Source of the DNA: Adineta ricciae
Taxonomy: Eukaryota
Length of the DNA: 45,595 bases
Assembly: GCA_905250025.1 (NCBI GenBank)
Contig: CAJNOJ010000205.1
Span: 144,292 to 189,886 of the forward strand
Direction of reading: 5' to 3'
Shown: positions 1 to 38,832 of the stretch, one piece after another
Position numbering within the stretch: position 1 is the stretch's first letter
How the letters are laid out: each line of letters begins with the position of its first letter
Made by a program: the position numbers and the translations under genes
The notes under the pieces: model-generated
Told to the model about the DNA's origin: nothing
The model's database searches: none
The model's input: only the letters and a program-made list of their open reading frames with translations

Positions 1-2417
1 GTACCATTGATATTGCATGGAAATATCGCTTCAGTACCATTTGGAATGTATATTTTATTGTTTGCTAAATAGGGTACAAATAAATCAGCCGTATCACAGT
101 TTCCGATAACATAAGGCACTGGAATTTTATAAAGTACGCAAGTACTGTTCATCCAAACTTCATTCCATCCACTAAAACCTCGTCGAGGTGCATAAAACCC
201 CAAACATGTATTACTTCCGAAATCACCTCGATTCATATCTGCGTAGACGTAGATTTGATGATGATCTTTCTTTGAGTGACCTAGAAAATTCTTTTTACCA
301 CCATAAACATGAAAATTATAACTGTCTTCGTAGAAACAACTGCCATCATCATGATCGATAGGCCACAGAGCATTATAATTGTTGAAAATCGTGTTATGGT
401 GAATATAACTATAGTGCTGCCAGAGCGAAGGCACGCCGGGTTGGGTCGCATCACTCAAAAACGGTTGCCGATCCCATGTGTTGATAGGTCCATGATCACT
501 CGTTTCCCGAACTGTGTTAAACATTACATTCCAACTGAGTGTATGATTTCCGTAATAACCGTCATTGATATTGATTGCTGCGCGTGGTACATTAAACATT
601 AGGTTACCAATGACAGATGCACTGCGACTAACAGCGATTAGTACCGGTGAAGATTGTTTATTGTAAATACCGGTTTCATGCATTAAATTCGACTGTATCA
701 GTGTATTTGCTGGTTGACTTCGCACGCTAAAGCCATCGATTCCATTCGTACTACCGACAAGAATGATCGCTGAGTCTGCTAACCATACGAATTCATTCAT
801 AACAATCGAAGTTGCATCGTTATAATCAATTAGCGCGATACCATTGCTGCCTAGTTGTGTAAATAAATTTCGTGTTATACTAACATCTTTCGTATTCATT
901 AGATATAGAGTACCGCCTCGATGAACAGCCCAATCGCCACCACCTGGTACCATGTATTCCCGCATGTATGTACTCGTCGTTTCTGATAGTATTAAACCTT
1001 CGAATCGTACATTATAGATTGGATCATCAATACTAATACCGCGCAAAGAAATAAGACAAGGCACTTGACTGGCAACGAAAGTGTTTGGCATCGTTTCATT
1101 GGGCATAAAGTAGAGCGTACGGCTATCTTTATCTAGGAACCATTCGTTGGGTGAATCAAGTTCTTCGAAAATATTAGCGACATAAAATGCGCCACCCCAA
1201 CTTAAACCTCGTGCTTCTTGAAATCCACCTCGACCAAACATAATCGTGTATTCTGTACTATTAACCGACCCTATCTGAAATATCCAGCTGCCCCAATATT
1301 CGCCTTGAAATGTGTGCACCAAACCAGCGGTGGATTTAGTCCAATTGCTCATATGCGGTAATGTATCTTTATTCACAGTAATGCCGCGAGTAGTAACGTA
1401 ATTATCACCACCGGGTGGTGCCGCTGTGCTCCAAAAGTTCGTAGGCGGATCGAAAACGTATGCACCACCGCCCACGCCAAGTTGAAAATTCGTAAACACC
1501 GTACCATTTCGAAACGGCACTTGTACATGTACTTCTAGACTTCTATTCGGAGTAGGCCCCCACCACTTTTGCCACTCAAAACAAAATCCAGGATTTTTAG
1601 CATATAACCCTTGAGTCGATGGATCACCATTTGGATACTTGGCAAGAATCGCACGTTTACCATCAATATATAACTCATTAAATTGCTCTAAGTCAATATA
1701 CGATGGTATTTTCGCTTTCATGATGGTACCATTAGTTGTTGTTTTTGCATGGACAGACCATTGTAACGGTAATAACGTACCACCACTTAATATGACACGT
1801 TCATCTAGGTAATTCTGTATCACAAGATTACTATCAGCACTTGTTAATTGAATCACACCCATTTGACTACTGGATGTAGTTGCATTTGCACCGAGATAGT
1901 ACGTCCCTTCACGTATAACAATGCACATCGTATTGTTTCTACCGTATGTGATACGAAACGTCCGCGTTAATAATACAGCTGTCTGAATAGTTTTCAAAGG
2001 CATTTCAAATGTTCCATTCCATCGATCGTCACCCGTTTTCCCGTTGACAAACACTGTGCGATAACAGTTATCTGCTTTCGTTTTTTCTTTATTTGCGAAT
2101 AGCGAACGACTATTGGATGATCGGTAAGTACGATAGATTGTTTCATTACATTCATCCATTTGAAATGCACTTTCACTAAGTGTTGTCCAGTTACCTTTCC
2201 AAAACGGAGGCGCGATGTACCCAGCCATCTCGATAGTGAAAGCGCGTAGTGCACAGTCGTCCTTGAGAGCAACATTTGGATTTCTGACTCGACCATATCG
2301 CGGATCAATTTTAGCTGAATACTTCGTTGTACGATGTTCAAGTGAACAGCTCACCATACTGTCTGAGCTATAAATCACAATGAGCAATATAAGTGACATA
2401 CCAGTGAATAATAGCAT
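1..2417 (-). CDS. Secreted right-handed parallel beta-helix (pectin-lyase-fold) protein. The 5' end is complete (ATG at 2417, alternative ATG at 2399) and the 3' end runs past window position 1. There are no introns.
   Basis: My own minus-strand translation is open from 2417 to position 1 (more than 800 aa) with no stop, and the upstream in-frame stop is TAG. This ORF is absent from the supplied track, presumably because it has no in-window stop. The N-terminus (MLLFTGMSLILLIVIYSSDSMVSCS) looks like a signal peptide. The body carries repeated beta-helix rungs with N-rich turns, for example ITRNLFTQLGSNGIALIDYND, VIGNLMFNVPRAAININDG and IHHNTIFNNYNALWPIDHDDGS. A continuous 2.4-kb exon is unusual here, because most other genes in the window have ~50-bp introns. 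Confidence 0.6.
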   Translation of the reverse strand, partial: MLLFTGMSLILLIVIYSSDSMVSCSLEHRTTKYSAKIDPRYGRVRNPNVALKDDCALRAFTIEMAGYIAPPFWKGNWTTLSESAFQMDECNETIYRTYRSSNSRSLFANKEKTKADNCYRTVFVNGKTGDDRWNGTFEMPLKTIQTAVLLTRTFRITYGRNNTMCIVIREGTYYLGANATTSSSQMGVIQLTSADSNLVIQNYLDERVILSGGTLLPLQWSVHAKTTTNGTIMKAKIPSYIDLEQFNELYIDGKRAILAKYPNGDPSTQGLYAKNPGFCFEWQKWWGPTPNRSLEVHVQVPFRNGTVFTNFQLGVGGGAYVFDPPTNFWSTAAPPGGDNYVTTRGITVNKDTLPHMSNWTKSTAGLVHTFQGEYWGSWIFQIGSVNSTEYTIMFGRGGFQEARGLSWGGAFYVANIFEELDSPNEWFLDKDSRTLYFMPNETMPNTFVASQVPCLISLRGISIDDPIYNVRFEGLILSETTSTYMREYMVPGGGDWAVHRGGTLYLMNTKDVSITRNLFTQLGSNGIALIDYNDATSIVMNEFVWLADSAIILVGSTNGIDGFSVRSQPANTLIQSNLMHETGIYNKQSSPVLIAVSRSASVIGNLMFNVPRAAININDGYYGNHTLSWNVMFNTVRETSDHGPINTWDRQPFLSDATQPGVPSLWQHYSYIHHNTIFNNYNALWPIDHDDGSCFYEDSYNFHVYGGKKNFLGHSKKDHHQIYVYADMNRGDFGSNTCLGFYAPRRGFSGWNEVWMNSTCVLYKIPVPYVIGNCDTADLFVPYLANNKIYIPNGTEAIFPCNING

Positions 2418-3123
2418 TCCTGCAGAATTTCTTTTGTGCTATAGAAAAAGACAACAGAACTGTATACGTATATTCTGTTTGATATTTCAATACAGAAGAC
2501 CTTGTGTCAAGTTACATAAGATAACACAGTGATAAGAATGTTTAAAAATAGTTGGATTGGGTTGTATTTACCTTAACTTCTGTTTGATCGGTGGAACAAT
2601 ACTGTTGCAATAGAATTGGATTTTCTTGTGAATTATAAGCATACATTGATTTGTCTTGGATCATCTGATCGTCAGCACTGAATATAAAAATAAAATAATA
2701 TTTTATACGATCGCATGGTTTTTTTTACATGTACCATTGAAAATTCAATCAATGGTATAAAAATGAAGCCAATTATATGACAGTCACTGTAGAAGTCGCT
2801 CTTTGTTTATTCTCTCAAGAGCACAACGTGAATAGCAACATCATATACTTTCACAAATTGCTACAAATAATCATTCAGACGCCGTTTGAAACGGTAAAAG
2901 CTGTTGCCGGCTAGAATCCTTTCAAAATATAACAACGAAGAAGAAAAGAAAAGCAAAGAATGTTGAATGAAAATTCGATGATTGACAGGCAATACATGTT
3001 TTCGTTGTCGTCATCATGTTCTTCAGCTTGATTCGTGCCATTCTCGTGAAAGTGTTGAAATTTCCCTCTTCAACAGTATGAATGATGTCACTGGGCGAAA
3101 ATGAGTTCGAAGTTCTTAAAAGT

Positions 3124-5847: not shown

Positions 5848-6927
5848 TTATTGTTGTTCAGAAGCAATCGAGTTCGAACAAACGATTCTGTCAAAATGAT
5901 GATTATCAGGAGAGCGATGAGTCGATGGTTTGGATGAGGTGAAAACAGTAAAACTGGATGTCCAATCGTCACGAAATTGACACGTGACAAACCAGCGTTT
6001 TTCTTCCAGCCAAAATGGATTTCGAAAAGCAGTGATCATTCTATCAAAATGATTCCAATCGCAGCAATAGCAGAAGATGCAGAATTCCAAATGAGCAAGT
6101 CGTGGTAATTTCAGCCGGAGAAAGTATTCCCACTGAGATAGACGATGTATAAATTCGAATGGCTTGCCCGAACTCGTAAGATCCAGATGAGTTAACGAGG
6201 ACAACAGAGAAAGACAGTATTCCAGTTTATCCATTGTGATTTTGAGGTCGTTTAGTGTAAGAGAATGTAATTGCGTGTAGGATTTCGTGAGGAATGACTC
6301 GTTGATTTCGACTTTCCAACAATTGTTCATGATGAGAGCATGTAAATTAGGCGAATGGTCTAGAATGGAGCAAAATTGCTCGAACGTGCACGTTCCAATC
6401 GAAATACTTGTAGCTCGACACGAAAACGGCCATAGAAATCGTTCGACGTTGTTCAGATTAAAGTTCAAAATGCATTGGCGAAGACTGGATTGTAAGAGAA
6501 TCATGGATACTAAATTCAATAAATCATCTACATTCTCTAAGGGATTTACATCGAGAGAGAATGTAATTAAGTTACAATTCTTTATCACATGCCGTAAAAT
6601 CAATTTGACTTCATTGATATCCACACGATGAAGAACTAATGTTTCAAGCCGTTGGAATCGATGAATGTCGATAATTACACTGTTGTTATCATCGATTTCT
6701 AATAGTAAAACATTTTCCAATGGAATAATCCGGCAGATATTTTTCATCGCAATTGAGTTAACGTGAATCTTATATCGATTATAACTTTCTGTAACAGCAA
6801 ATAGTTGCGTACAAACATGTCGAATCGATCGAACGATCGTTTTTGTATCCAGAAAATCGCAAATCCGATATAGAAGCTCCGTTGGTAAGTCGAGAAGACC
6901 AACTTTATTTTCTTTTAGAGTTGTCAT
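5848..6927 (-). CDS. F-box plus leucine-rich-repeat protein, single exon
   Basis: The ORF starts at a true ATG and has an N-terminal F-box (LLDLPTELLYRICDFLDTKTIVRSIRHVCTQLF) followed by a Leu-rich repetitive body. Confidence 0.7.
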   Translation of the reverse strand: MTTLKENKVGLLDLPTELLYRICDFLDTKTIVRSIRHVCTQLFAVTESYNRYKIHVNSIAMKNICRIIPLENVLLLEIDDNNSVIIDIHRFQRLETLVLHRVDINEVKLILRHVIKNCNLITFSLDVNPLENVDDLLNLVSMILLQSSLRQCILNFNLNNVERFLWPFSCRATSISIGTCTFEQFCSILDHSPNLHALIMNNCWKVEINESFLTKSYTQLHSLTLNDLKITMDKLEYCLSLLSSLTHLDLTSSGKPFEFIHRLSQWEYFLRLKLPRLAHLEFCIFCYCCDWNHFDRMITAFRNPFWLEEKRWFVTCQFRDDWTSSFTVFTSSKPSTHRSPDNHHFDRIVCSNSIASEQQ

Positions 6928-14892: not shown

Positions 14893-17710
14893 TTATATGA
14901 AAGCGCGTCTCCGTTGAGACGTCACTTGCTGAAGTAGTTTCCAATGGATCTTCACAGAGTTTTTGAATTCTGTTTTGTATAATTTCGAAGGTAAAACGAA
15001 AGCAACAAAAAGAAGAATCGATGGTAAAAACGAAATAAAATATCCGAGTAGATATATGCTAACTGAATCATAAGCTGACTGCAGGCATTCGAGGTAAAAT
15101 GCGAGAATAATGCGTGGTAGACCTAGAATAACTAGTACAATAGGACTGATAATTAGATACTTGTGTCGACGAAGTTGACGCTGAACATGCTCGTTCATTG
15201 CGACAGTTTTGTGAAGGTTCGATTGGTGCCTAGCGATGATGATGATGATTCCGAAAGCCGATAGTAGATTAACTACAAATGGACTAATAAAGTGAATAAC
15301 AGTCGTAACAGATGTAAATGTAATGAGAAGATTTGAGTTGGAATCTGGATAACGTACAACACACCAAGTTCTTCCTTCATCTTCATCGATAATCAGAGTC
15401 CGGTAAAGAGGCTCTTGGATCGAAGTGCCAATAACAATCAGACAGACAAGAAGTACAATCCATTTAGCTACTTTTCGACTAGATTCACTTTTGAAATGAA
15501 CACCTTTAGCAACGGACACGATACGTTCAACGGCAACGCATGCATATAACCAATCCTCAATTTGTAAGCATATCTTCAGCATAAAATCGATCAATATACA
15601 CTGACACGATAGATAGCCACGATTGGTAATCCATTGAGACTGCGTGGCGAACAACAAAAAATATTTCAAAACAAATACGACCATAGTGAAAATCGAGAGA
15701 ACTGCAGCAGTCAAAAGATAGATACCACAACCAACTTCGCGTGAGTTATTCCGTACGAAGGTGACCGTAGAGAGGATGCCATTGATAAGACCGAATATAA
15801 ACATCATAATGGTAACTACTGCGCTCAATTTGACCGGCAAGGAATGATGAAAAAAAGAGCGAGCGGGTAGAATCTGGTAGCCGAGTATGACATCTAACGG
15901 AAGGCCAAAGCCTTTAGTTGATAGTTGACATCGAGTACCTAGATAGCATTTGGGACAAGCACATCTGGCAGCTGTCGGACATTTGGCAGAATTCTGAAAG
16001 CATTGTCCACCGTTTTCGCAATGATTCAACTGTGAACAATCATATTTCATACGATGGTCGAATGTAAAACAGTTTGCTCGATGATCGTATGTGCATAAAC
16101 ACATGAACTGATCTTCATCGTGAAAACATTCGAGATCCAGTTGTTGTTGACATGGAATATGATAGTATTTAACACGTCGAAGAAGTGGAAAATTGAAGAT
16201 CGTACGATTTAGTAATTCTCGGATGGACGGACATCGTCGATCAGGTTTTAACGTAAGTTGATAATGAGCTGATGATGTGTATTTGAGCTGAGTTAATAGT
16301 AAATACATGTTATGGTCATATTCGACAAAAAGGAGATGAAACGGATTTTGCCAATAGATGGTAACTATATCTCTATAGAGTGCAATTCGTTTGAATGTAG
16401 TTGCACGTTCATGTGCACCCCACTTTTTTGTTGGAATGTATGGAAACAAAGAGACCTTGAAATTATCAGTGATAAAATGAACTAAAAGCGATTCTTTCTT
16501 ATTTGGCATTTGAATTGATATATCAATTCGTGTTTCATTGTATTGGCAACTGTCACCATGAAATCCATCTCGGCATGCACACACCGTTGGTTTATCAACA
16601 GTGATTCGATGATCTCGTGGAATACATGTACCTCCATTTTGACATTTTCTAGTACCGGTTTGTTCGCATATATTATTTCCTAGATAACATCGTTCTCCAA
16701 ACTTATGAATAGGACAGACACAAATGGACCGATTTTTCCAAATACCAAGGCAAATTGAATCTGGAGAACAATTGCATTTATATGGAATTGTACATGATGG
16801 ACCAGTCCAACCTGATTGACAACGACAAAATGATCCACCTGTATTTACAAATGATACACATTGACCGCGTTTCGAATGACAATCAATTGGGCAATTGCTT
16901 CTTGGCGACATAGTAACCGGTGGCACTACTAACAGAATTGGTAAACGATGAACAGGCAAAAATGAGAATAATAGAGGAAATGTCCAGCTTGCACGATATT
17001 TGAGTGTTCCCATTTCGAAGACATGAATACGAATCGAATAAGTTGTCGTGGTGGATTTGGGGAGAGAAGAATAGAGTAAATGAAAGTTGAATTTAGTGTT
17101 GCAGTCTCGAATGGACAGATATCTTATTTGGTAATATGAATTGACGATCTCATCTTTATCATCAAGAAGATAGACAACTAAGTTAAATGGAGTTTGCCAT
17201 TCAGGAGCTCCGATCTGAAGAGTGACACTCACACGTTGTCTTTGATATTCACATTTGGAACCATAGGGATGCGGTGGACAAAGACAGCTAACTGTATGCT
17301 GGAAATAAACTGGTACACCGCCGTGACACTGAAATTGAGCTAGTGGCGTTTGTTGTTGGTTACCAATCTGAGGAAAGAACAGCTGGTCAAGGATGTTTTC
17401 CAGAAGTGATAAGGGTGAAGAACCTGCGGATTGCTTACTTATTAGAGGTGATGCGAAAACAATACTATGATTATTGAGTGAAAATCGTGTTGGCATATCG
17501 AATATTGAAGCAGATTTTTTTATAAACCCATCTAAGCCGCACATTAAGTTGTTACTGCTTACTCGTCGATCGAACGTCACAAAATGACCACATAAAGTTT
17601 CAAAATTGGAACTTACACTATGTTTGCATAAAAAAGGATCTTCGTCGTCCCCTAACAAGCAATCACGATTTCCATCACATAAGTGTGCACGACTAATACA
17701 CGCTTTTTCC
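14893..17710 (-). CDS. LDLa/EGF/7TM receptor exon 4: Cys-rich EGF-like modules followed by a 7-transmembrane rhodopsin-like domain
   Basis: The EGF-like stretches include CHSKRGQCVSFVNTGGSFCRCQSGWTGPSC and CQNGGTCIP...CACRDGFHGDSC. Seven hydrophobic helices follow, for example VVTIMMFIFGLINGILSTVTFV and YLLTAAVLSIFTMVVFVLKYFLLF. The frame agrees with ORF 14893-17658. Confidence 0.7.
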
Positions 17711-29714: not shown

Positions 29715-30447
29715 TTATAGACCATGGACATATGTTCGACCTAGATCAGATAAACTTCCATCAGCTCGAATTAAACAGTTGGTTGAACCGAGTGCAGCAT
29801 CGAGACGACGTTGAGCTCCAAACCAGGCATAGCGTTCAACCCAGTCTAACGAATCAAGTTTTTGAACACTCTGTCGCATGAATTCATTGACTTCTGCTTG
29901 AGATACAGGTTGACTTGGATTCCATGACGTACAAGCGAATTCTGTTACCCATACAGGATGTTTATTGCCCAGCTGTTGACGAACGAGTGTGATCCAATTG
30001 ATAAAATTATCAGCACCACGACCGTACCAATGTAAAGCAATAAAATCGATCCGTCCACCGATTTGATTCAAGTCTCTGATGAATTGTTTTAACCAATTGA
30101 GTCCTTCGTTAGTCGAAGCAATAGCTGGTGAGCCAAGACGAACGCCTTGTTGTCTAAGAGGTTCAATATATTTTTTCCAAGCTAGTGCAGCATCACCAGG
30201 ACTCATGTGTGCTTGATCAGCACGTTCCGGTTCGTTGAAACCGAGCACATGCTTTGCACCTCGTGCTTGATTCACGAATAGACTGCCATCGTGACCTTTA
30301 TTCGTACTCCATAACATAGGAATAAATTCAGTACCAGCAAGATTTGTTCTATACGGTGACCAATTGTAAACCCATGAAATCTTTCCGCCACCAAAAACAC
30401 CCGGATTATCTTCTTTATTTTCCATTGGCCATGCAATACCTCGTTTT
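29715..30447 (-). CDS. PAN/apple-GH128 glucanase gene, exon 2: GH128 (Glyco_hydro_cc) catalytic domain
   Basis: The exon reads ...ISWVYNWSPYRTNLAGTEFIPMLWSTNKG...HVLGFNEPERADQAHMSPGDAALAWKKYIEPLRQ...PVWVTEFACTSWNP. NEP and TEF are the expected positions of the two catalytic Glu residues in the fungal/bacterial GH128 beta-1,3-glucanase fold. Confidence 0.7.
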
Positions 30448-36498: not shown

Positions 36499-38832
36499 TC
36501 AATAACACCCCCACCCACCCTCACCCTCACCCTCAATAAGCGCTTTGAAATGTTTCAATTCGGTCAAACGCATCACGGCTGTCTTATATTCCGGATGGTT
36601 AACATCGAATACTTCCTTGTATATCTTAACCGCCATTTCGTAGTAATGTATAGCCATTGAAATATCGCCGTTTAGCGCTAGAATGGTACCCATAGTAGAA
36701 AATGTTCGAGCAAATGTTGGATGATTTGATGGATAAACACGACGTTTGATTTCCAGAGAAAAATTACAATAGTGCAATGCTTGTTCAGTATTACCTTGAT
36801 CTGCATAATACGATGCAAGATTGCTATAGAACATCCCTAGTTCTGATTCGTCAGGAGTTTGAGCGTTTTGTATACAATTGATGGCTTTTCTTGTATATTC
36901 TATGCCTTGTTCGATATTGCCCATACTATGATACACTACACCGATATTATTGTACCTTTTAGCAATACTTATGCTCATCCCTTTTTCAAATTGTTCCTCG
37001 GTTTGTAAGCTTTTTTGTAGATAATACAACGCTAATTCGTATTCTTCTTTTTTACGATAGATAACACCAATATTGCCATAAACACCAGCCAGTGCAACAT
37101 GACTGTATATGCCATTAATGGTGTATATTCGTTCTGCTTCTTTATATTGGCGAAGTGCTTCATCATATTCGCCTTTGGCGTCATATACCCCTCCAATTTC
37201 CTGATAAGCGCAGGCAATCGGTAGTTTGTTATCGGCAAATAATCCCTGAAGAATTTCAAGATTTCTTTTGCAATATTGTAATGATTTATTGTATTGTCCT
37301 AACTTCAAATAAGCTGCACCTATGCTAGAGTATAGTCTCGCTGCCATCATATCGTTATTCAAATGGCGATGTTCCACGATTTCATGCGCATGAAAATAAT
37401 TTTTAAAGGCATCATCATAATTTCCAAACCTTTCATAAGTGTCTCCAATGCGTGTTAGAGTACGCACAAATACATTCGGACCTACTGTTGGGTATTTCAA
37501 GTGAATTTCTAATGCCGTTTTGTAAAAGCTCATTGCTCGTTCATAATCTTCTTCTTGTGCATAAATTTGTCCAATGTTGTTATAAATATGGCAACAAACT
37601 GGATGCATGGAAGAACCTTCCATTATATAACAATTTAAAGCCTTTATATAGTAGTATAGACCGCGTCGATAGTTATGCTTAACACAGTTGCAAATACCAA
37701 GAACATTGTAGATTTTCCCAGGATTCTCAGTGTACTCTTCGAGTAACATAAGCAGATATTTTTCTGCTTTGCCATACGAATACGATTCATTTAGAAGTAT
37801 AGCCAATTCAAACAGTGGATCATCACAGTCCTCCAAACGGGAGTATGAATTCTTGAGGTAATCATTCAATTTCACCCTGCTCTCATCAGTTGCTGTAAGC
37901 TGTATTTTCCAAACATTGTTTTCCATTTGTTTAACAGACTGTACTACGAATAGCATGCCCATAGAGAGTAAGACTTCATTTTCGTCCGACATATGGCTTA
38001 CGTTTGAGATATCAGCTAGTGGTTTGTGCGATCGATTCACATCGATTGTGATTTCAAAAAGTACTGACTCGATTTCTGGTCGATTGGACCCATCGCCAGC
38101 AAATATGAGTGCAACATCTTGACGCTTTGTTGTAGACAAGAAAGATTTTAGCGAGATGATGGTATTTTTACTAGCTTTTAGATTATTCAACTCGCTGGCT
38201 TCCATTTGTTGACCGCGGTAAACTGTAATAACATTCGAGTTTTCCGTTTTGAATTTATTATGTAAATCACTGAGTGCATCATAAAGATCGATTACAAAAC
38301 TTCGAAACTTGAATATGATATCAATATCTTCAGTTTGAAGCGCTTTGTTTATTACTTTATGAATGAAACAATCTTGAGTGTACCACGAAATAGCCGATTG
38401 AGGTTGATATGTCTTTTCAAACCGTTCAATTTTTCTTAATTCACTGGGATCATCATGATATTGGACCCTGCATATTGTTACCATATCTTGTCTTGATCTA
38501 TCGTTTTGAGGTAGACGCCGTAGAGCTTCCAATAACATTTGATTCCACTGATAAGTTGCACAATGTGAACTCAGATCGTGGCTAGACGTAGTTTTCATTG
38601 AGAACAGCATCGGTTCCACTACAGGCATCTGCAACAACTCTATATCGCTTTTCACACGATCACATAGTTGTTTATTTAATTCATAGACTCTGTCTCGAAT
38701 CTTTGGAAAATGATGTGTCCAATTCAATTGTTCCGAATCCATATTTGAGATTTCTTTCTCAAAGCAAATATAAATGTATATCAGCTGCGGAATCTCATGA
38801 ATGAGTGGCACCAACAATTCAGCTTCACTCAA
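36499..38832 (-). CDS. Arginine-specific ADP-ribosyltransferase domain (R-S-ExE) fused to tetratricopeptide (kinesin-light-chain-type TPR) repeats
   Basis: The ART core has R in VITVYRGQQM, S-T-T in LKSFLSTTKRQDVAL and ExE in SDENEVLLSMG. More than 10 TPR units follow, for example AMSFYKTALEIHLKYPTVGPNVFVRTLTRIGDTYERFGNYDDAF. The C-terminal tail is EGEGEGGWGCY*. The ORF track begins at a TTG, and the first ATG within this ORF (MDSEQLNW...) is at about 38742. The true 5' end may lie in the next feature. Confidence 0.75.
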   Translation of the reverse strand: MSEAELLVPLIHEIPQLIYIYICFEKEISNMDSEQLNWTHHFPKIRDRVYELNKQLCDRVKSDIELLQMPVVEPMLFSMKTTSSHDLSSHCATYQWNQMLLEALRRLPQNDRSRQDMVTICRVQYHDDPSELRKIERFEKTYQPQSAISWYTQDCFIHKVINKALQTEDIDIIFKFRSFVIDLYDALSDLHNKFKTENSNVITVYRGQQMEASELNNLKASKNTIISLKSFLSTTKRQDVALIFAGDGSNRPEIESVLFEITIDVNRSHKPLADISNVSHMSDENEVLLSMGMLFVVQSVKQMENNVWKIQLTATDESRVKLNDYLKNSYSRLEDCDDPLFELAILLNESYSYGKAEKYLLMLLEEYTENPGKIYNVLGICNCVKHNYRRGLYYYIKALNCYIMEGSSMHPVCCHIYNNIGQIYAQEEDYERAMSFYKTALEIHLKYPTVGPNVFVRTLTRIGDTYERFGNYDDAFKNYFHAHEIVEHRHLNNDMMAARLYSSIGAAYLKLGQYNKSLQYCKRNLEILQGLFADNKLPIACAYQEIGGVYDAKGEYDEALRQYKEAERIYTINGIYSHVALAGVYGNIGVIYRKKEEYELALYYLQKSLQTEEQFEKGMSISIAKRYNNIGVVYHSMGNIEQGIEYTRKAINCIQNAQTPDESELGMFYSNLASYYADQGNTEQALHYCNFSLEIKRRVYPSNHPTFARTFSTMGTILALNGDISMAIHYYEMAVKIYKEVFDVNHPEYKTAVMRLTELKHFKALIEGEGEGGWGCY

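What the first reader, a model, noticed from the sequence alone, without database searches (positions are those of the whole stretch)
1..2417. Intronless gene of more than 800 aa for a secreted parallel beta-helix protein in an otherwise intron-rich region
Reading the minus strand by hand gives an uninterrupted frame from the ATG at 2417 to the window edge. The protein has a signal peptide and many beta-helix rungs with N-rich turns, matching the pectate-lyase/polygalacturonase-like fold. Most other genes in this window have 42-66 bp introns, so a 2.4-kb single exon with a bacterial/fungal-type fold stands out as a candidate recent horizontal acquisition. It is missing from the supplied ORF track because it has no stop inside the window.
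Basis: partly seen in the sequence, partly recalled or inferred. Interest (0 to 1): 0.6.

Follow-up and report, generated by a model that had tools for sequence, protein, structure and literature searches.

The report
Ancient rotifer GH141-like beta-helix gene
This is a real, intact gene of the bdelloid rotifer Adineta ricciae for a secretory-pathway beta-helix protein that probably cuts polysaccharides, but it is an old resident of rotifer genomes whose closest relatives are in protists and sponges, not a recent import from bacteria or fungi.

Summary
The open frame is real: 805 codons without a stop from ATG 2417 to the window edge, and the stop lies 127 nt further on (847 aa from that ATG). 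The window is Adineta ricciae, and the gene is already annotated (879 aa, "Right handed beta helix domain-containing protein"). A confident AlphaFold model is a right-handed beta-helix whose best structural match by far is the bacterial GH141 fucosidase BT_1002. GH28 and pectate-lyase models do not hit.

"Recent HGT from bacteria or fungi" is not supported. A syntenic orthologue exists in A. vaga (dS about 1.3, dN/dS about 0.09). Paralogues occur in Adineta, Rotaria and Didymodactylos. GC3 matches the neighbouring genes. A 5' intron just upstream of the ATG is conserved.

Every relative that could be labelled is eukaryotic: sponges, choanoflagellates, Pigoraptor, amoebozoans, rhizarians and euglenozoans. 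The nearest outgroups are environmental eukaryotes, and the best bacterial hit scores only 43 bits. Single-exon structure is family-wide (the sponge tandem copies share it) and common around this locus.

The origin in bdelloids is unresolved. An ancient transfer from a microbial eukaryote is favoured over vertical descent with loss. Function is inferred, not shown. Overall this is ordinary for a bdelloid genome, but the eukaryote-wide family itself is uncharacterised.

The parts
1..2438 (-). Exon 2 of the gene (in-window part). It holds 21 nt upstream of the ATG, then codons for Met33 to residue 837 of P0001. The exon continues 127 nt beyond window position 1 to the stop codon.
   Evidence: The translation is identical to P0001 residues 33-879 once extended with L001.
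2415..2417 (-). It is the first ATG of the unspliced ORF and the probable start of a signal peptide.
   Evidence: in-frame TAG at 2441-2439 just upstream. (most paralogues start at the equivalent hydrophobic segment).
2352..2417 (-). Hydrophobic N-terminal segment (MLLFTGMSLILLIVIYSSDSMV). It is a cleavable signal peptide if translation starts at 2417, or a signal anchor if exon 1 is coding.
   Evidence: Kyte-Doolittle 2.76 over 15 aa. No dedicated signal-peptide predictor was available.
2439..2571 (-). 133-nt GT..AG intron of the deposited gene model. The donor AAG|GTAAAT and acceptor TATAG| are at conserved positions in the A. vaga orthologue and in paralogue P0010.
2572..2646 (-). Annotated exon 1 (25 codons, MYAYNSQENPILLQQYCSTDQTEVK). 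Whether it is coding or 5'UTR is unproven.
   Evidence: similar peptide ..LLQQxYxxxQTxVK in the A. vaga orthologue, and an extension of the same 32-aa length in P0010. (the 5' end of the intron is equally conserved, so conservation does not prove coding).
2148..2267 (-). N-terminal helical cap (residues 83-122) with the conserved pair Cys87 and Cys122.
   Evidence: helices 83-100, 103-116, 119-122; pLDDT about 90. (Cys conservation 34/42 and 40/42).
1689..2066 (-). First beta-helix rungs (residues 150-275). This is the region with sequence similarity to GH141 BT_1002 residues 23-155.
1089..1688 (-). Insertion domain (residues about 276-475), ending in the GGFQEARG and NIFEELDSPNEW motifs. Its last 30 residues match Pfam GH141_M.
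219..1088 (-). Main beta-helix (residues about 476-765). It carries an Asn ladder and family-invariant polar motifs: SGGDW, NEF, HE..KQ, PRA, NDG, RETxDHG, WDR, DHDDGS, YGGxK and GHSK.
339..566 (-). Putative active-site block: residues 650-725 (NDG ... RETSDHG ... WDR ... DHDDGS).
   Evidence: These columns are invariant or nearly invariant across rotifer, sponge and protist members. The catalytic role is inferred, not shown.
1..218 (-). Start of the C-terminal domain (residues 766-837 in the window, 838-879 beyond it), with four conserved cysteines (770, 792, 806, 833).

Best explanation
The feature is a functional nuclear gene of the bdelloid rotifer Adineta ricciae.

What it encodes. The protein is N-glycosylated and disulfide-bonded, and it enters the secretory pathway through an N-terminal hydrophobic signal. 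It folds as a right-handed parallel beta-helix with an inserted domain, the architecture of glycoside hydrolase family 141.

How it probably works (inferred). It binds a polysaccharide along the groove of the helix and cleaves it using invariant acidic residues on successive rungs. Candidates are D651, E670/D673, D681, D720-D723 and D759. It most likely acts as a digestive or extracellular glycan-degrading enzyme on food-derived algal, bacterial or fungal polymers.

Where it comes from. It belongs to a large, uncharacterised, mostly single-exon family found across phagotrophic and filter-feeding eukaryotes. It was already present, in several paralogous copies, in the common ancestor of living bdelloids. 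Its entry into that ancestor was most likely an ancient transfer from a microbial eukaryote (inferred, roughly 60:30 against vertical descent with loss). It was not a recent transfer from bacteria or fungi.
For: Intact, constrained ORF: (dN/dS 0.085 against the A. vaga orthologue).

Identity with the deposited A. ricciae protein, and linkage to animal-type genes (7tm_1 GPCRs, DDX60-like helicase, RSN1/TMEM63-like).

Synteny in the A. vaga chromosome assembly.

Fold:
- AlphaFold pLDDT 82.6, pTM 0.87.
- Foldseek E 1e-23, against 1e-9 for the next family.
- Family profile against BT_1002 E 2e-29, and against 9rx2 E 9e-28.

Secretory features.

Invariant polar motifs across members 33-48% identical.

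Ancient in bdelloids: named hits in Adineta vaga, A. ricciae, A. steineri, Rotaria species and Didymodactylos. Bdelloid monophyly has 100% NJ bootstrap, with several internal paralogue clades.

Eukaryote-wide family:
- 716 representatives at E<=1e-30.
- Labelled members are Dysidea, Ephydatia, Sycon, four choanoflagellates, Pigoraptor, four amoebozoans, Leptophrys, Nonionella, Diplonema and Apiculatamorpha.

Sister sequences lie on eukaryotic contigs of 37-66% GC, and 100% bootstrap joins them to the bdelloids.

Protist-derived foreign genes are a known class in A. ricciae: 11% of foreign transcripts (PMC3499245).
Against: - No enzymatic activity, expression or localisation was tested.
- The GH141 catalytic pair (D523/D564 of BT_1002; PMC12786026) could not be mapped. 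The C-terminal half of the family has no detectable sequence match to any PDB chain, and the only alignment to the GH141-type DG...RxD segment of 9rx2 is weak (hhalign E 0.019, probability 2.5%).
- Pfam GH141_M scores below its gathering threshold (23.1 against 27 bits).
- The taxa of the sister environmental sequences are unknown.
- Sponges and choanoflagellates carry the family, so vertical descent cannot be excluded.
- The trees are neighbour-joining on Kimura distances, not maximum likelihood.
- Whether the protein is secreted or membrane-anchored depends on the unproven coding status of exon 1.
Confidence: 0.6

Rival explanations
1. Vertical inheritance. The gene descends from a family already present in the holozoan or animal ancestor. 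It was kept in sponges and bdelloid rotifers and lost in most other animals, so no horizontal transfer into rotifers occurred.
For: The family occurs in three sponges from two classes on chromosome-scale assemblies, in four choanoflagellates and in Pigoraptor. Among named organisms the best non-rotifer hit is a sponge (507 bits). Bdelloids, demosponges and Pigoraptor fall in the same half of the NJ tree. Composition, intron and synteny show nothing foreign.
Against: Bdelloids group with 100% bootstrap with environmental sequences from 37-66% GC genomes that have protist-like neighbours, to the exclusion of sponges and Pigoraptor. No other bilaterian, cnidarian, ctenophore or placozoan name appeared in any hit list, which implies many independent losses. 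The family tree is broadly incongruent with the species tree. About one A. ricciae gene in eight is an HGT candidate (PMC5916493).
Confidence: 0.3
2. One reading: a recent horizontal acquisition from a bacterium or fungus of a pectate-lyase or polygalacturonase-type gene.
Against: - A syntenic A. vaga orthologue with dS about 1.3.
- Paralogues across three bdelloid genera.
- Host-like GC3.
- A conserved 5' intron.
- No GH28 or pectate-lyase Pfam hit and no NCBIfam bacterial family.
- The only bacterial matches are 25% identity and 43 bits, plus BT_1002 at 38 bits.
- No fungal name appears in any list.
Confidence: 0.02
3. The protein is a non-catalytic beta-helix, for example an adhesin, a glycan-binding receptor or a structural surface protein, rather than an enzyme.
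Against: Dozens of invariant Asp, Glu, His, Arg, Asn and Gln residues are retained at 33-48% overall identity and are concentrated on consecutive rungs. This is the pattern of an active site rather than a scaffold. The closest structure over 491 residues is an enzyme.
Confidence: 0.12
4. The ORF is a contaminant or an assembly artefact and is not part of the rotifer genome.
For: None specific. It is a generic concern for foreign-looking genes in draft assemblies.
Against: The same 12.6 kb is identical in a second record. The gene is flanked on both sides by animal-type genes. The same gene order is seen on an A. vaga chromosome. Base composition matches the host.
Confidence: 0.01

Closest known systems
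Glycoside hydrolase family 141, founding member BT_1002 of Bacteroides thetaiotaomicron (PDB 5MQP). Characterised activities in the family are alpha-L-fucosidase, endo-xylanase and endo-fucanase.
   Different: Sequence similarity is confined to the N-terminal half. The C-terminal rungs carry a different invariant motif set (KQ, NDG, RETxDHG, WDR, DHDDGS) with no PDB sequence match. GH141_M scores below the Pfam threshold. Equivalents of D523/D564 were not identified. There is an extra N-terminal helical cap and a Cys-rich C-terminal domain. The hosts are eukaryotic.
PDB 9RX2, 'Parallel beta-helix repeat protein' (no paper found)
   Same: It is matched by the family profile at E 9e-28 over 207 residues, further into the helix than BT_1002. 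It shares the H-x-x-G-x-x-x-x-Q-S motif.
   Different: Its function is unknown to me and no literature was retrievable. It was absent from the structure libraries searched. The alignment of its DG...RxD segment to this family is only weak.
Foreign-origin carbohydrate-active enzymes of bdelloid rotifers (Boschetti et al. 2012, PMC3499245; Nowell et al. 2018, PMC5916493; Eyres et al. 2015, PMC4632278)
   Same: A non-animal-type glycan-active gene linked to animal genes, shared by bdelloid genera, few or no introns, multi-copy.
   Different: Its nearest relatives are eukaryotes, including sponges, not bacteria or fungi. With current databases the hU-type score on named taxa is negative (456 - 507 bits), so standard screens might not flag it.
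GH28 polygalacturonases and pectate lyases (PL1, PL9)
   Different: No Pfam hit to these families at E<=1. They lack the inserted domain, and the structural overlap is much shorter than with GH141.

Membership tests
Right-handed parallel beta-helix (pectin-lyase-like) fold | Stacked three-strand rungs forming a right-handed helix, recognisable by structure comparison | tested here: met
Right-handed parallel beta-helix (pectin-lyase-like) fold | Pfam Beta_helix (PF13229) at or above the gathering score | tested here: not met
   No PF13229 hit for this protein at E<=1. 13 of 25 rotifer paralogues hit at E<=0.01. The S. rosetta relative passes the threshold (33.7 against 25.9 bits).
GH141 | Overall architecture: beta-helix plus inserted domain, superposable on BT_1002 | tested here: met
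GH141 | Significant sequence homology to a characterised member | tested here: met
   Single sequence E 4e-9. Family profile E 2e-29. Only the N-terminal half aligns.
GH141 | Pfam GH141_M insertion domain at or above the gathering score (27 bits) | tested here: not met
   23.1 bits, and only profile positions 125-155 of 156 match.
GH141 | Conserved catalytic aspartate pair equivalent to BT_1002 D523 and D564 (PMC12786026) | tested here: inconclusive
   The C-terminal sub-profile finds no PDB match. The bacterial bridge aligns only family residues 132-542. A weak hhalign (E 0.019) puts the 9rx2 DG/ET/RxD segment opposite D651/E670/D681. No coordinates were available for a superposition.
GH141 | Glycosidase activity (fucosidase, xylanase or fucanase) | not testable with these tools
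   Needs biochemistry.
GH28 / pectate lyase | Match to the Glyco_hydro_28, Pec_lyase_C or Pectate_lyase_3 models | tested here: not met
   None was listed at E<=1.
Bdelloid HGT candidate (criteria of Nowell et al. 2018) | hU >= 30: the best non-metazoan bit score exceeds the best non-rotifer metazoan score | tested here: inconclusive
   On named taxa: Pigoraptor 456 against Dysidea 507 bits, giving -51. If the unnamed environmental eukaryote P0298 (762 bits) is non-metazoan, the score is +255.
Bdelloid HGT candidate (criteria of Nowell et al. 2018) | Physical linkage to genes of clear metazoan type | tested here: met
   7tm_1 GPCRs, an EGF+7tm_1 receptor, a DDX60-like helicase and an RSN1_7TM gene lie on the same contig.
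Bdelloid HGT candidate (criteria of Nowell et al. 2018) | Clan membership with non-metazoan sequences in a phylogeny | tested here: inconclusive
   100% NJ bootstrap with environmental eukaryote sequences, to the exclusion of sponges. The taxa of those sequences are unknown, though their contigs are 37-66% GC with protist-like neighbours.
Recent acquisition | Absent from sister species, or lacking synteny, or compositionally atypical, or without introns | tested here: not met
   A syntenic A. vaga orthologue, dS 1.29, GC3 0.33 within the neighbours' range, and a conserved 5' intron.

The most novel reading that the evidence does not exclude
The gene represents a previously unrecognised, eukaryote-wide branch of GH141-like beta-helix enzymes. 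The branch has its own catalytic-face motif set (KQ / NDG / RETxDHG / WDR / DHDDGS). It is single-exon in rotifers, sponges and protists, and it is distributed almost only among phagotrophs and filter feeders (choanoflagellates, sponges, amoebae, foraminifera, vampyrellids, diplonemids, bdelloids). It would have spread by repeated eukaryote-to-eukaryote transfer and then expanded into large paralogue sets, giving bdelloids and sponges a digestive activity on a polysaccharide that other animals cannot use.
Probability: 0.3. Interest if true: 0.5.

Novelty: new member of a known kind. Interest (0 to 1): 0.3.

Why it matters
For this locus, the result corrects a tempting reading. A long intron-poor gene with a 'microbial' fold in a bdelloid is not evidence of recent bacterial or fungal transfer. 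Single-exon genes and foreign-looking genes are both common in A. ricciae, and this gene predates the bdelloid radiation.

The more useful by-product is the family itself. It is large (716 representative clusters at E<=1e-30), strongly conserved, and has not been studied. It is shared by sponges, choanoflagellates, many protists and bdelloids. If it is enzymatically active, it would add a eukaryotic branch to a glycoside hydrolase family known only from bacterial fucosidases, xylanases and fucanases. It would also be a test case for telling ancient eukaryote-to-eukaryote transfer apart from differential loss.

Tried and rejected
1. The first AlphaFold run used a rotifer-only alignment and gave an unusable model (pLDDT 46.9). 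It was replaced by a diverse alignment.
2. The GTDB genome scan used the rotifer-only alignment, so its peptide patterns were rotifer-specific. It found only one weak bacterial locus (25% identity).
3. Bridging to BT_1002 through that bacterial protein failed, because it aligns only to family residues 132-542.
4. A sub-profile of residues 560-775 found no PDB match even at E<=10.
5. An HMMER segment aligning BT_1002 453-533 to family positions 494-575 was rejected as an out-of-register rung match. It overlaps the better segment 375-427.
6. Foldseek against AFDB50 was unavailable.
7. A giant-virus or phage vector was considered: there is no relative in IMG/VR.
8. Literature searches for the gene identifiers, for 9RX2, and for GH141 in sponges, choanoflagellates or bdelloids found nothing relevant.
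9. The YN00 dN/dS method failed numerically. The NG86 value is reported, with dS near saturation.
10. The GC3 values for the L001 and L009 genes are unreliable. I gave the L001 gene start one base off, and the L009 start was not checked. The correct value for this gene is 0.33.
11. NCBIfam gave only a sub-threshold hit to a Leptospira surface-protein model over 50 residues.
Full report
OBSERVATION.

Translating the minus strand from 2417 to 1 gives 805 codons with no stop. The ORF is missing from the mechanical ORF list only because it runs off the window. The sequence is 100% identical over all 805 residues to P0001, an 879-aa Adineta ricciae protein that UniRef names 'Right handed beta helix domain-containing protein'. 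The window is therefore bdelloid rotifer DNA.

The contig carrying P0001 (locus L001) is identical to window 12646-1 and extends 10 kb past window position 1. The frame continues uninterrupted for 127 nt to a stop codon.

The deposited model adds a 75-nt exon 1 (window 2646-2572) and a 133-nt GT..AG intron (2571-2439) that ends 21 nt upstream of the ATG. In unspliced DNA an in-frame TAG at 2441-2439 makes 2417 the first possible start.

THE 5' END.

Most rotifer paralogues begin directly with a hydrophobic signal peptide about 46 residues before a conserved DCxLR motif. The segment from ATG 2417 (MLLFTGMSLILLIVIYSSDS, Kyte-Doolittle 2.76) fits that pattern.

However, the splice donor (AAG|GTAAAT) and acceptor (TATAG|) occupy the same positions in three genes. 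These are the A. ricciae gene, its A. vaga orthologue, and the A. vaga paralogue P0010, whose annotated N-terminal extension has the same 32-residue length. The exon-1 peptide ..LLQQxYxxxQTxVK is recognisable in the orthologue. The 5' end of the intron is about as conserved as exon 1 between the orthologues, so conservation alone does not prove that exon 1 is coding.

The intron is real and old. Whether the product is a secreted protein (start at 2417) or a type II anchored one (start at 2646) is open. 'Intronless' holds for the body of the gene only.

IS IT UNUSUAL IN ITS NEIGHBOURHOOD?

Five of the eight neighbouring gene calls in L001 are single-exon, including an 840-aa RSN1_7TM gene just beyond the window edge. 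Inside the window there are single ORFs of 921 codons (EGF + 7tm_1 receptor), 777 codons (ADP-ribosyltransferase + TPR) and 634 codons (TRAF + LRR), plus an aldo-keto reductase.

Genome-wide, 20.9% of A. ricciae genes are single-exon and the median intron is 55 bp (PMC5916493). GC3 of the gene is 0.33, inside the range of 0.26-0.42 for its neighbours. The gene does not stand out by structure or composition.

WHAT THE PROTEIN IS.

Pfam gives only sub-threshold hits: GH141_M at 23.1 bits against a cut-off of 27, DUF1565, and NosD. There is nothing for GH28 or pectate lyases at E<=1. NCBIfam has no matching bacterial family.

A first AlphaFold run with close paralogues failed (pLDDT 47). With a diverse alignment the model is confident (pLDDT 82.6, pTM 0.87). 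It shows these regions:
- a disordered N-terminus;
- a three-helix cap (residues 83-122);
- the first beta-helix rungs (150-275);
- an inserted domain (about 276-475);
- a long run of short periodic strands (476-765);
- a Cys-rich C-terminal domain.

The protein has 16 N-x-S/T sequons (about 10 expected) and cysteines conserved across the family, as expected for a secretory-pathway protein.

The closest family is GH141, not pectinases.

ACTIVE SITE.

GH141 enzymes (fucosidase, xylanase, endo-fucanases) use D523 and D564 of BT_1002 (PMC12786026). I could not map these residues:
- Sequence similarity to GH141 stops in the first rungs after the insertion.
- A sub-profile of residues 560-775 matches no PDB chain.
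- The only alignment of the GH141-type 'DG...ET...RxD' segment of 9rx2 to this family is weak. It lies opposite NDG651 / RET671 / WD681 (hhalign E 0.019, probability 2.5%).

What the sequences do show is a dense set of residues that are invariant or nearly invariant between members only 33-48% identical: GGFQEARG, EELDxPxEW, SGGDW, NEF, HE..KQ, PRA, NDG, RETxDHG, WDR, DHDDGS, YGGxK and GHSK. They are spaced at rung intervals. This is the signature of a catalytic groove, and I infer an enzyme from it. Hydrolase versus lyase, and the substrate, are unknown.

AGE IN ROTIFERS.

The A. vaga chromosome assembly has the orthologue in the same gene order: DDX60-like helicase, aldo-keto reductase, a gene of about 350 aa, this gene, then RSN1_7TM. 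Between the two orthologues dN is 0.11 and dS 1.29, giving dN/dS of 0.085. dS is near saturation, but constraint is clearly strong.

Named relatives at 60-82% identity come from A. vaga, A. steineri, A. ricciae (further paralogues), several Rotaria species and Didymodactylos carnosus. In the trees these form one clade (100% bootstrap) with several internal paralogue lineages that each contain more than one genus. The gene was therefore present, already duplicated, before living bdelloids diverged. 'Recent' is refuted.

RELATIVES OUTSIDE ROTIFERS.

An exhaustive HMMER search of 1.84 billion cluster representatives found 5,209 relatives at E<=1e-3 and 716 at E<=1e-30. Many are full-length at 32-48% identity.

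Every one that could be named is eukaryotic:
- Sponges: Dysidea avara (at least 7 RefSeq paralogues on one 30.7-Mb chromosome), Ephydatia muelleri, Sycon ciliatum.
- Choanoflagellates: Salpingoeca rosetta, S. macrocollata, Choanoeca flexa, Didymoeca costata.
- Another holozoan: Pigoraptor chileana.
- Amoebozoans: Stereomyxa, Cavostelium, Phalansterium, Paramoeba.
- Rhizarians: Leptophrys, Nonionella.
- Euglenozoans: Diplonema, Apiculatamorpha.

The Dysidea genes form a tandem array of single-exon copies next to a ROCO/ankyrin gene. Lack of introns is thus a family trait.

By BLASTP bit score against P0001, the order is as follows:
- environmental eukaryote P0298: 762 bits, 48% identity;
- P0123: 612;
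- P0307: 565;
- P0126: 553;
- Dysidea: 507;
- Pigoraptor: 456;
- the only bacterial protein found: 43.

No fungal or bacterial name appeared in any strong-hit list. IMG/VR holds no viral relative.

ORIGIN IN BDELLOIDS.

In neighbour-joining trees with 100 bootstraps, bdelloids + P0298, and then + P0126, P0307/8, P0123, P0132 and P0130, are each supported at 100%. Demosponges and Pigoraptor fall in neighbouring clades. Choanoflagellates, Sycon and most protists fall in the other half of the tree.

The sister sequences sit on contigs with eukaryotic neighbours: Arf, zf-HIT, autoantigen p27, Snf7, an RRM protein, a GT37-type fucosyltransferase, a 7tm_3 + filamin + kelch protein, legumain, UCR_14kD and a protein kinase. 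GC content is 37-66% and each gene matches its own contig. None of them is a rotifer, and the high-GC ones look like protists, but I could not name them.

This favours an ancient transfer from a microbial eukaryote into the bdelloid stem. That is a known category: 11% of foreign A. ricciae transcripts were 'other eukaryotic taxa (largely protists)' (PMC3499245). Also, about 80% of the phylogeny-supported HGT candidates are shared by all four bdelloids in Nowell et al. 2018.

The alternative is descent from an ancestral holozoan gene kept in sponges and bdelloids and lost elsewhere. The family's presence in sponges and choanoflagellates keeps this alive. Ancient paralogy could also mimic the tree. 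I put the two at roughly 60:30.

COMPARISON AND VERDICT.

The locus works like, and is distantly homologous to, GH141. It fails one formal criterion (the Pfam GH141_M threshold) and leaves the catalytic pair untested. I therefore file it as GH141-like, not as a proven member.

As a phenomenon it is ordinary for a bdelloid. It is an already annotated, ancient, domesticated gene of non-typical animal type, in a genome where about one gene in eight is an HGT candidate.

What is mildly new is the recognition that it belongs to a large, conserved, unstudied eukaryotic family shared with sponges, choanoflagellates and many phagotrophic protists.

Interest 0.3.

Noticed in passing
window 29715-30425 (-): A 236-aa single ORF with a full-length, very strong match to Pfam Glyco_hydro_cc (PF11790, E 2e-67). 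From memory, this catalytic core is typical of fungi and bacteria. It may be another non-animal-type glycosidase gene in the same window. A Glyco_hydro_cc gene also lies near the P0307 relative on protist-like contig L006.
   Followed up: no
window 36499-38832 (-): A 777-codon single ORF combining an ADP-ribosyltransferase domain (ART / ADPrib_exo_Tox) with many TPR repeats. This is an unusual architecture for an animal gene.
   Followed up: no
window 14893-17658 (-): A 921-codon single ORF encoding a Teneurin-like EGF domain plus a rhodopsin-type 7TM receptor. It is longer than the in-window part of the target, which shows that very long exons are not rare here.
   Followed up: partly
L010 about 5962-6000 (A. 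vaga chromosome CP075492.1): The deposited A. vaga orthologue (P0002, I4U23_015378) starts at an internal Met (MLYDLHS...). It misses an in-frame upstream Met that supplies the signal peptide (MISFACILLMLIIMLYD...), and also the conserved upstream exon and intron. The A. steineri model P0003 looks similarly truncated.
   Followed up: partly
L013 1110-18144 (Dysidea avara chromosome OY787655.2): Three single-exon paralogues of the family (808, 799 and 799 aa) lie in a 17-kb tandem array in a sponge genome. A separate 630-kb ENA contig carries four more (P0320-P0323).
   Followed up: partly
L001 12983-15505 (just beyond window position 1): The next gene past the window edge is an 840-aa RSN1_7TM (OSCA/TMEM63-like) gene with no intron, followed by two single-exon 7tm_1 receptor genes. 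The same RSN1_7TM neighbour is present in A. vaga.
   Followed up: partly
P0118 (Rotaria socialis, 891 aa): One rotifer family member is annotated as a 'Fatty acid hydroxylase domain-containing protein' (PF04116). This is probably a gene model that fuses two adjacent genes.
   Followed up: no
window as a whole, against contig CAJNOR010001277.1: The window (45.6 kb) is longer than the 28.3-kb contig from which L001 was fetched. P0001 is recorded on two contigs (28,286 and 189,886 bp), so the window probably comes from the longer record. The overlapping 12.6 kb is 100% identical.
   Followed up: partly
P0411 (Salpingoeca rosetta PTSG_05343) and P0301/P0303/P0306, P0364, P0384 and others: Several non-rotifer members carry an N-terminal PAN/Apple domain in front of the beta-helix. 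This suggests a carbohydrate- or protein-binding module was added in some lineages.
   Followed up: no
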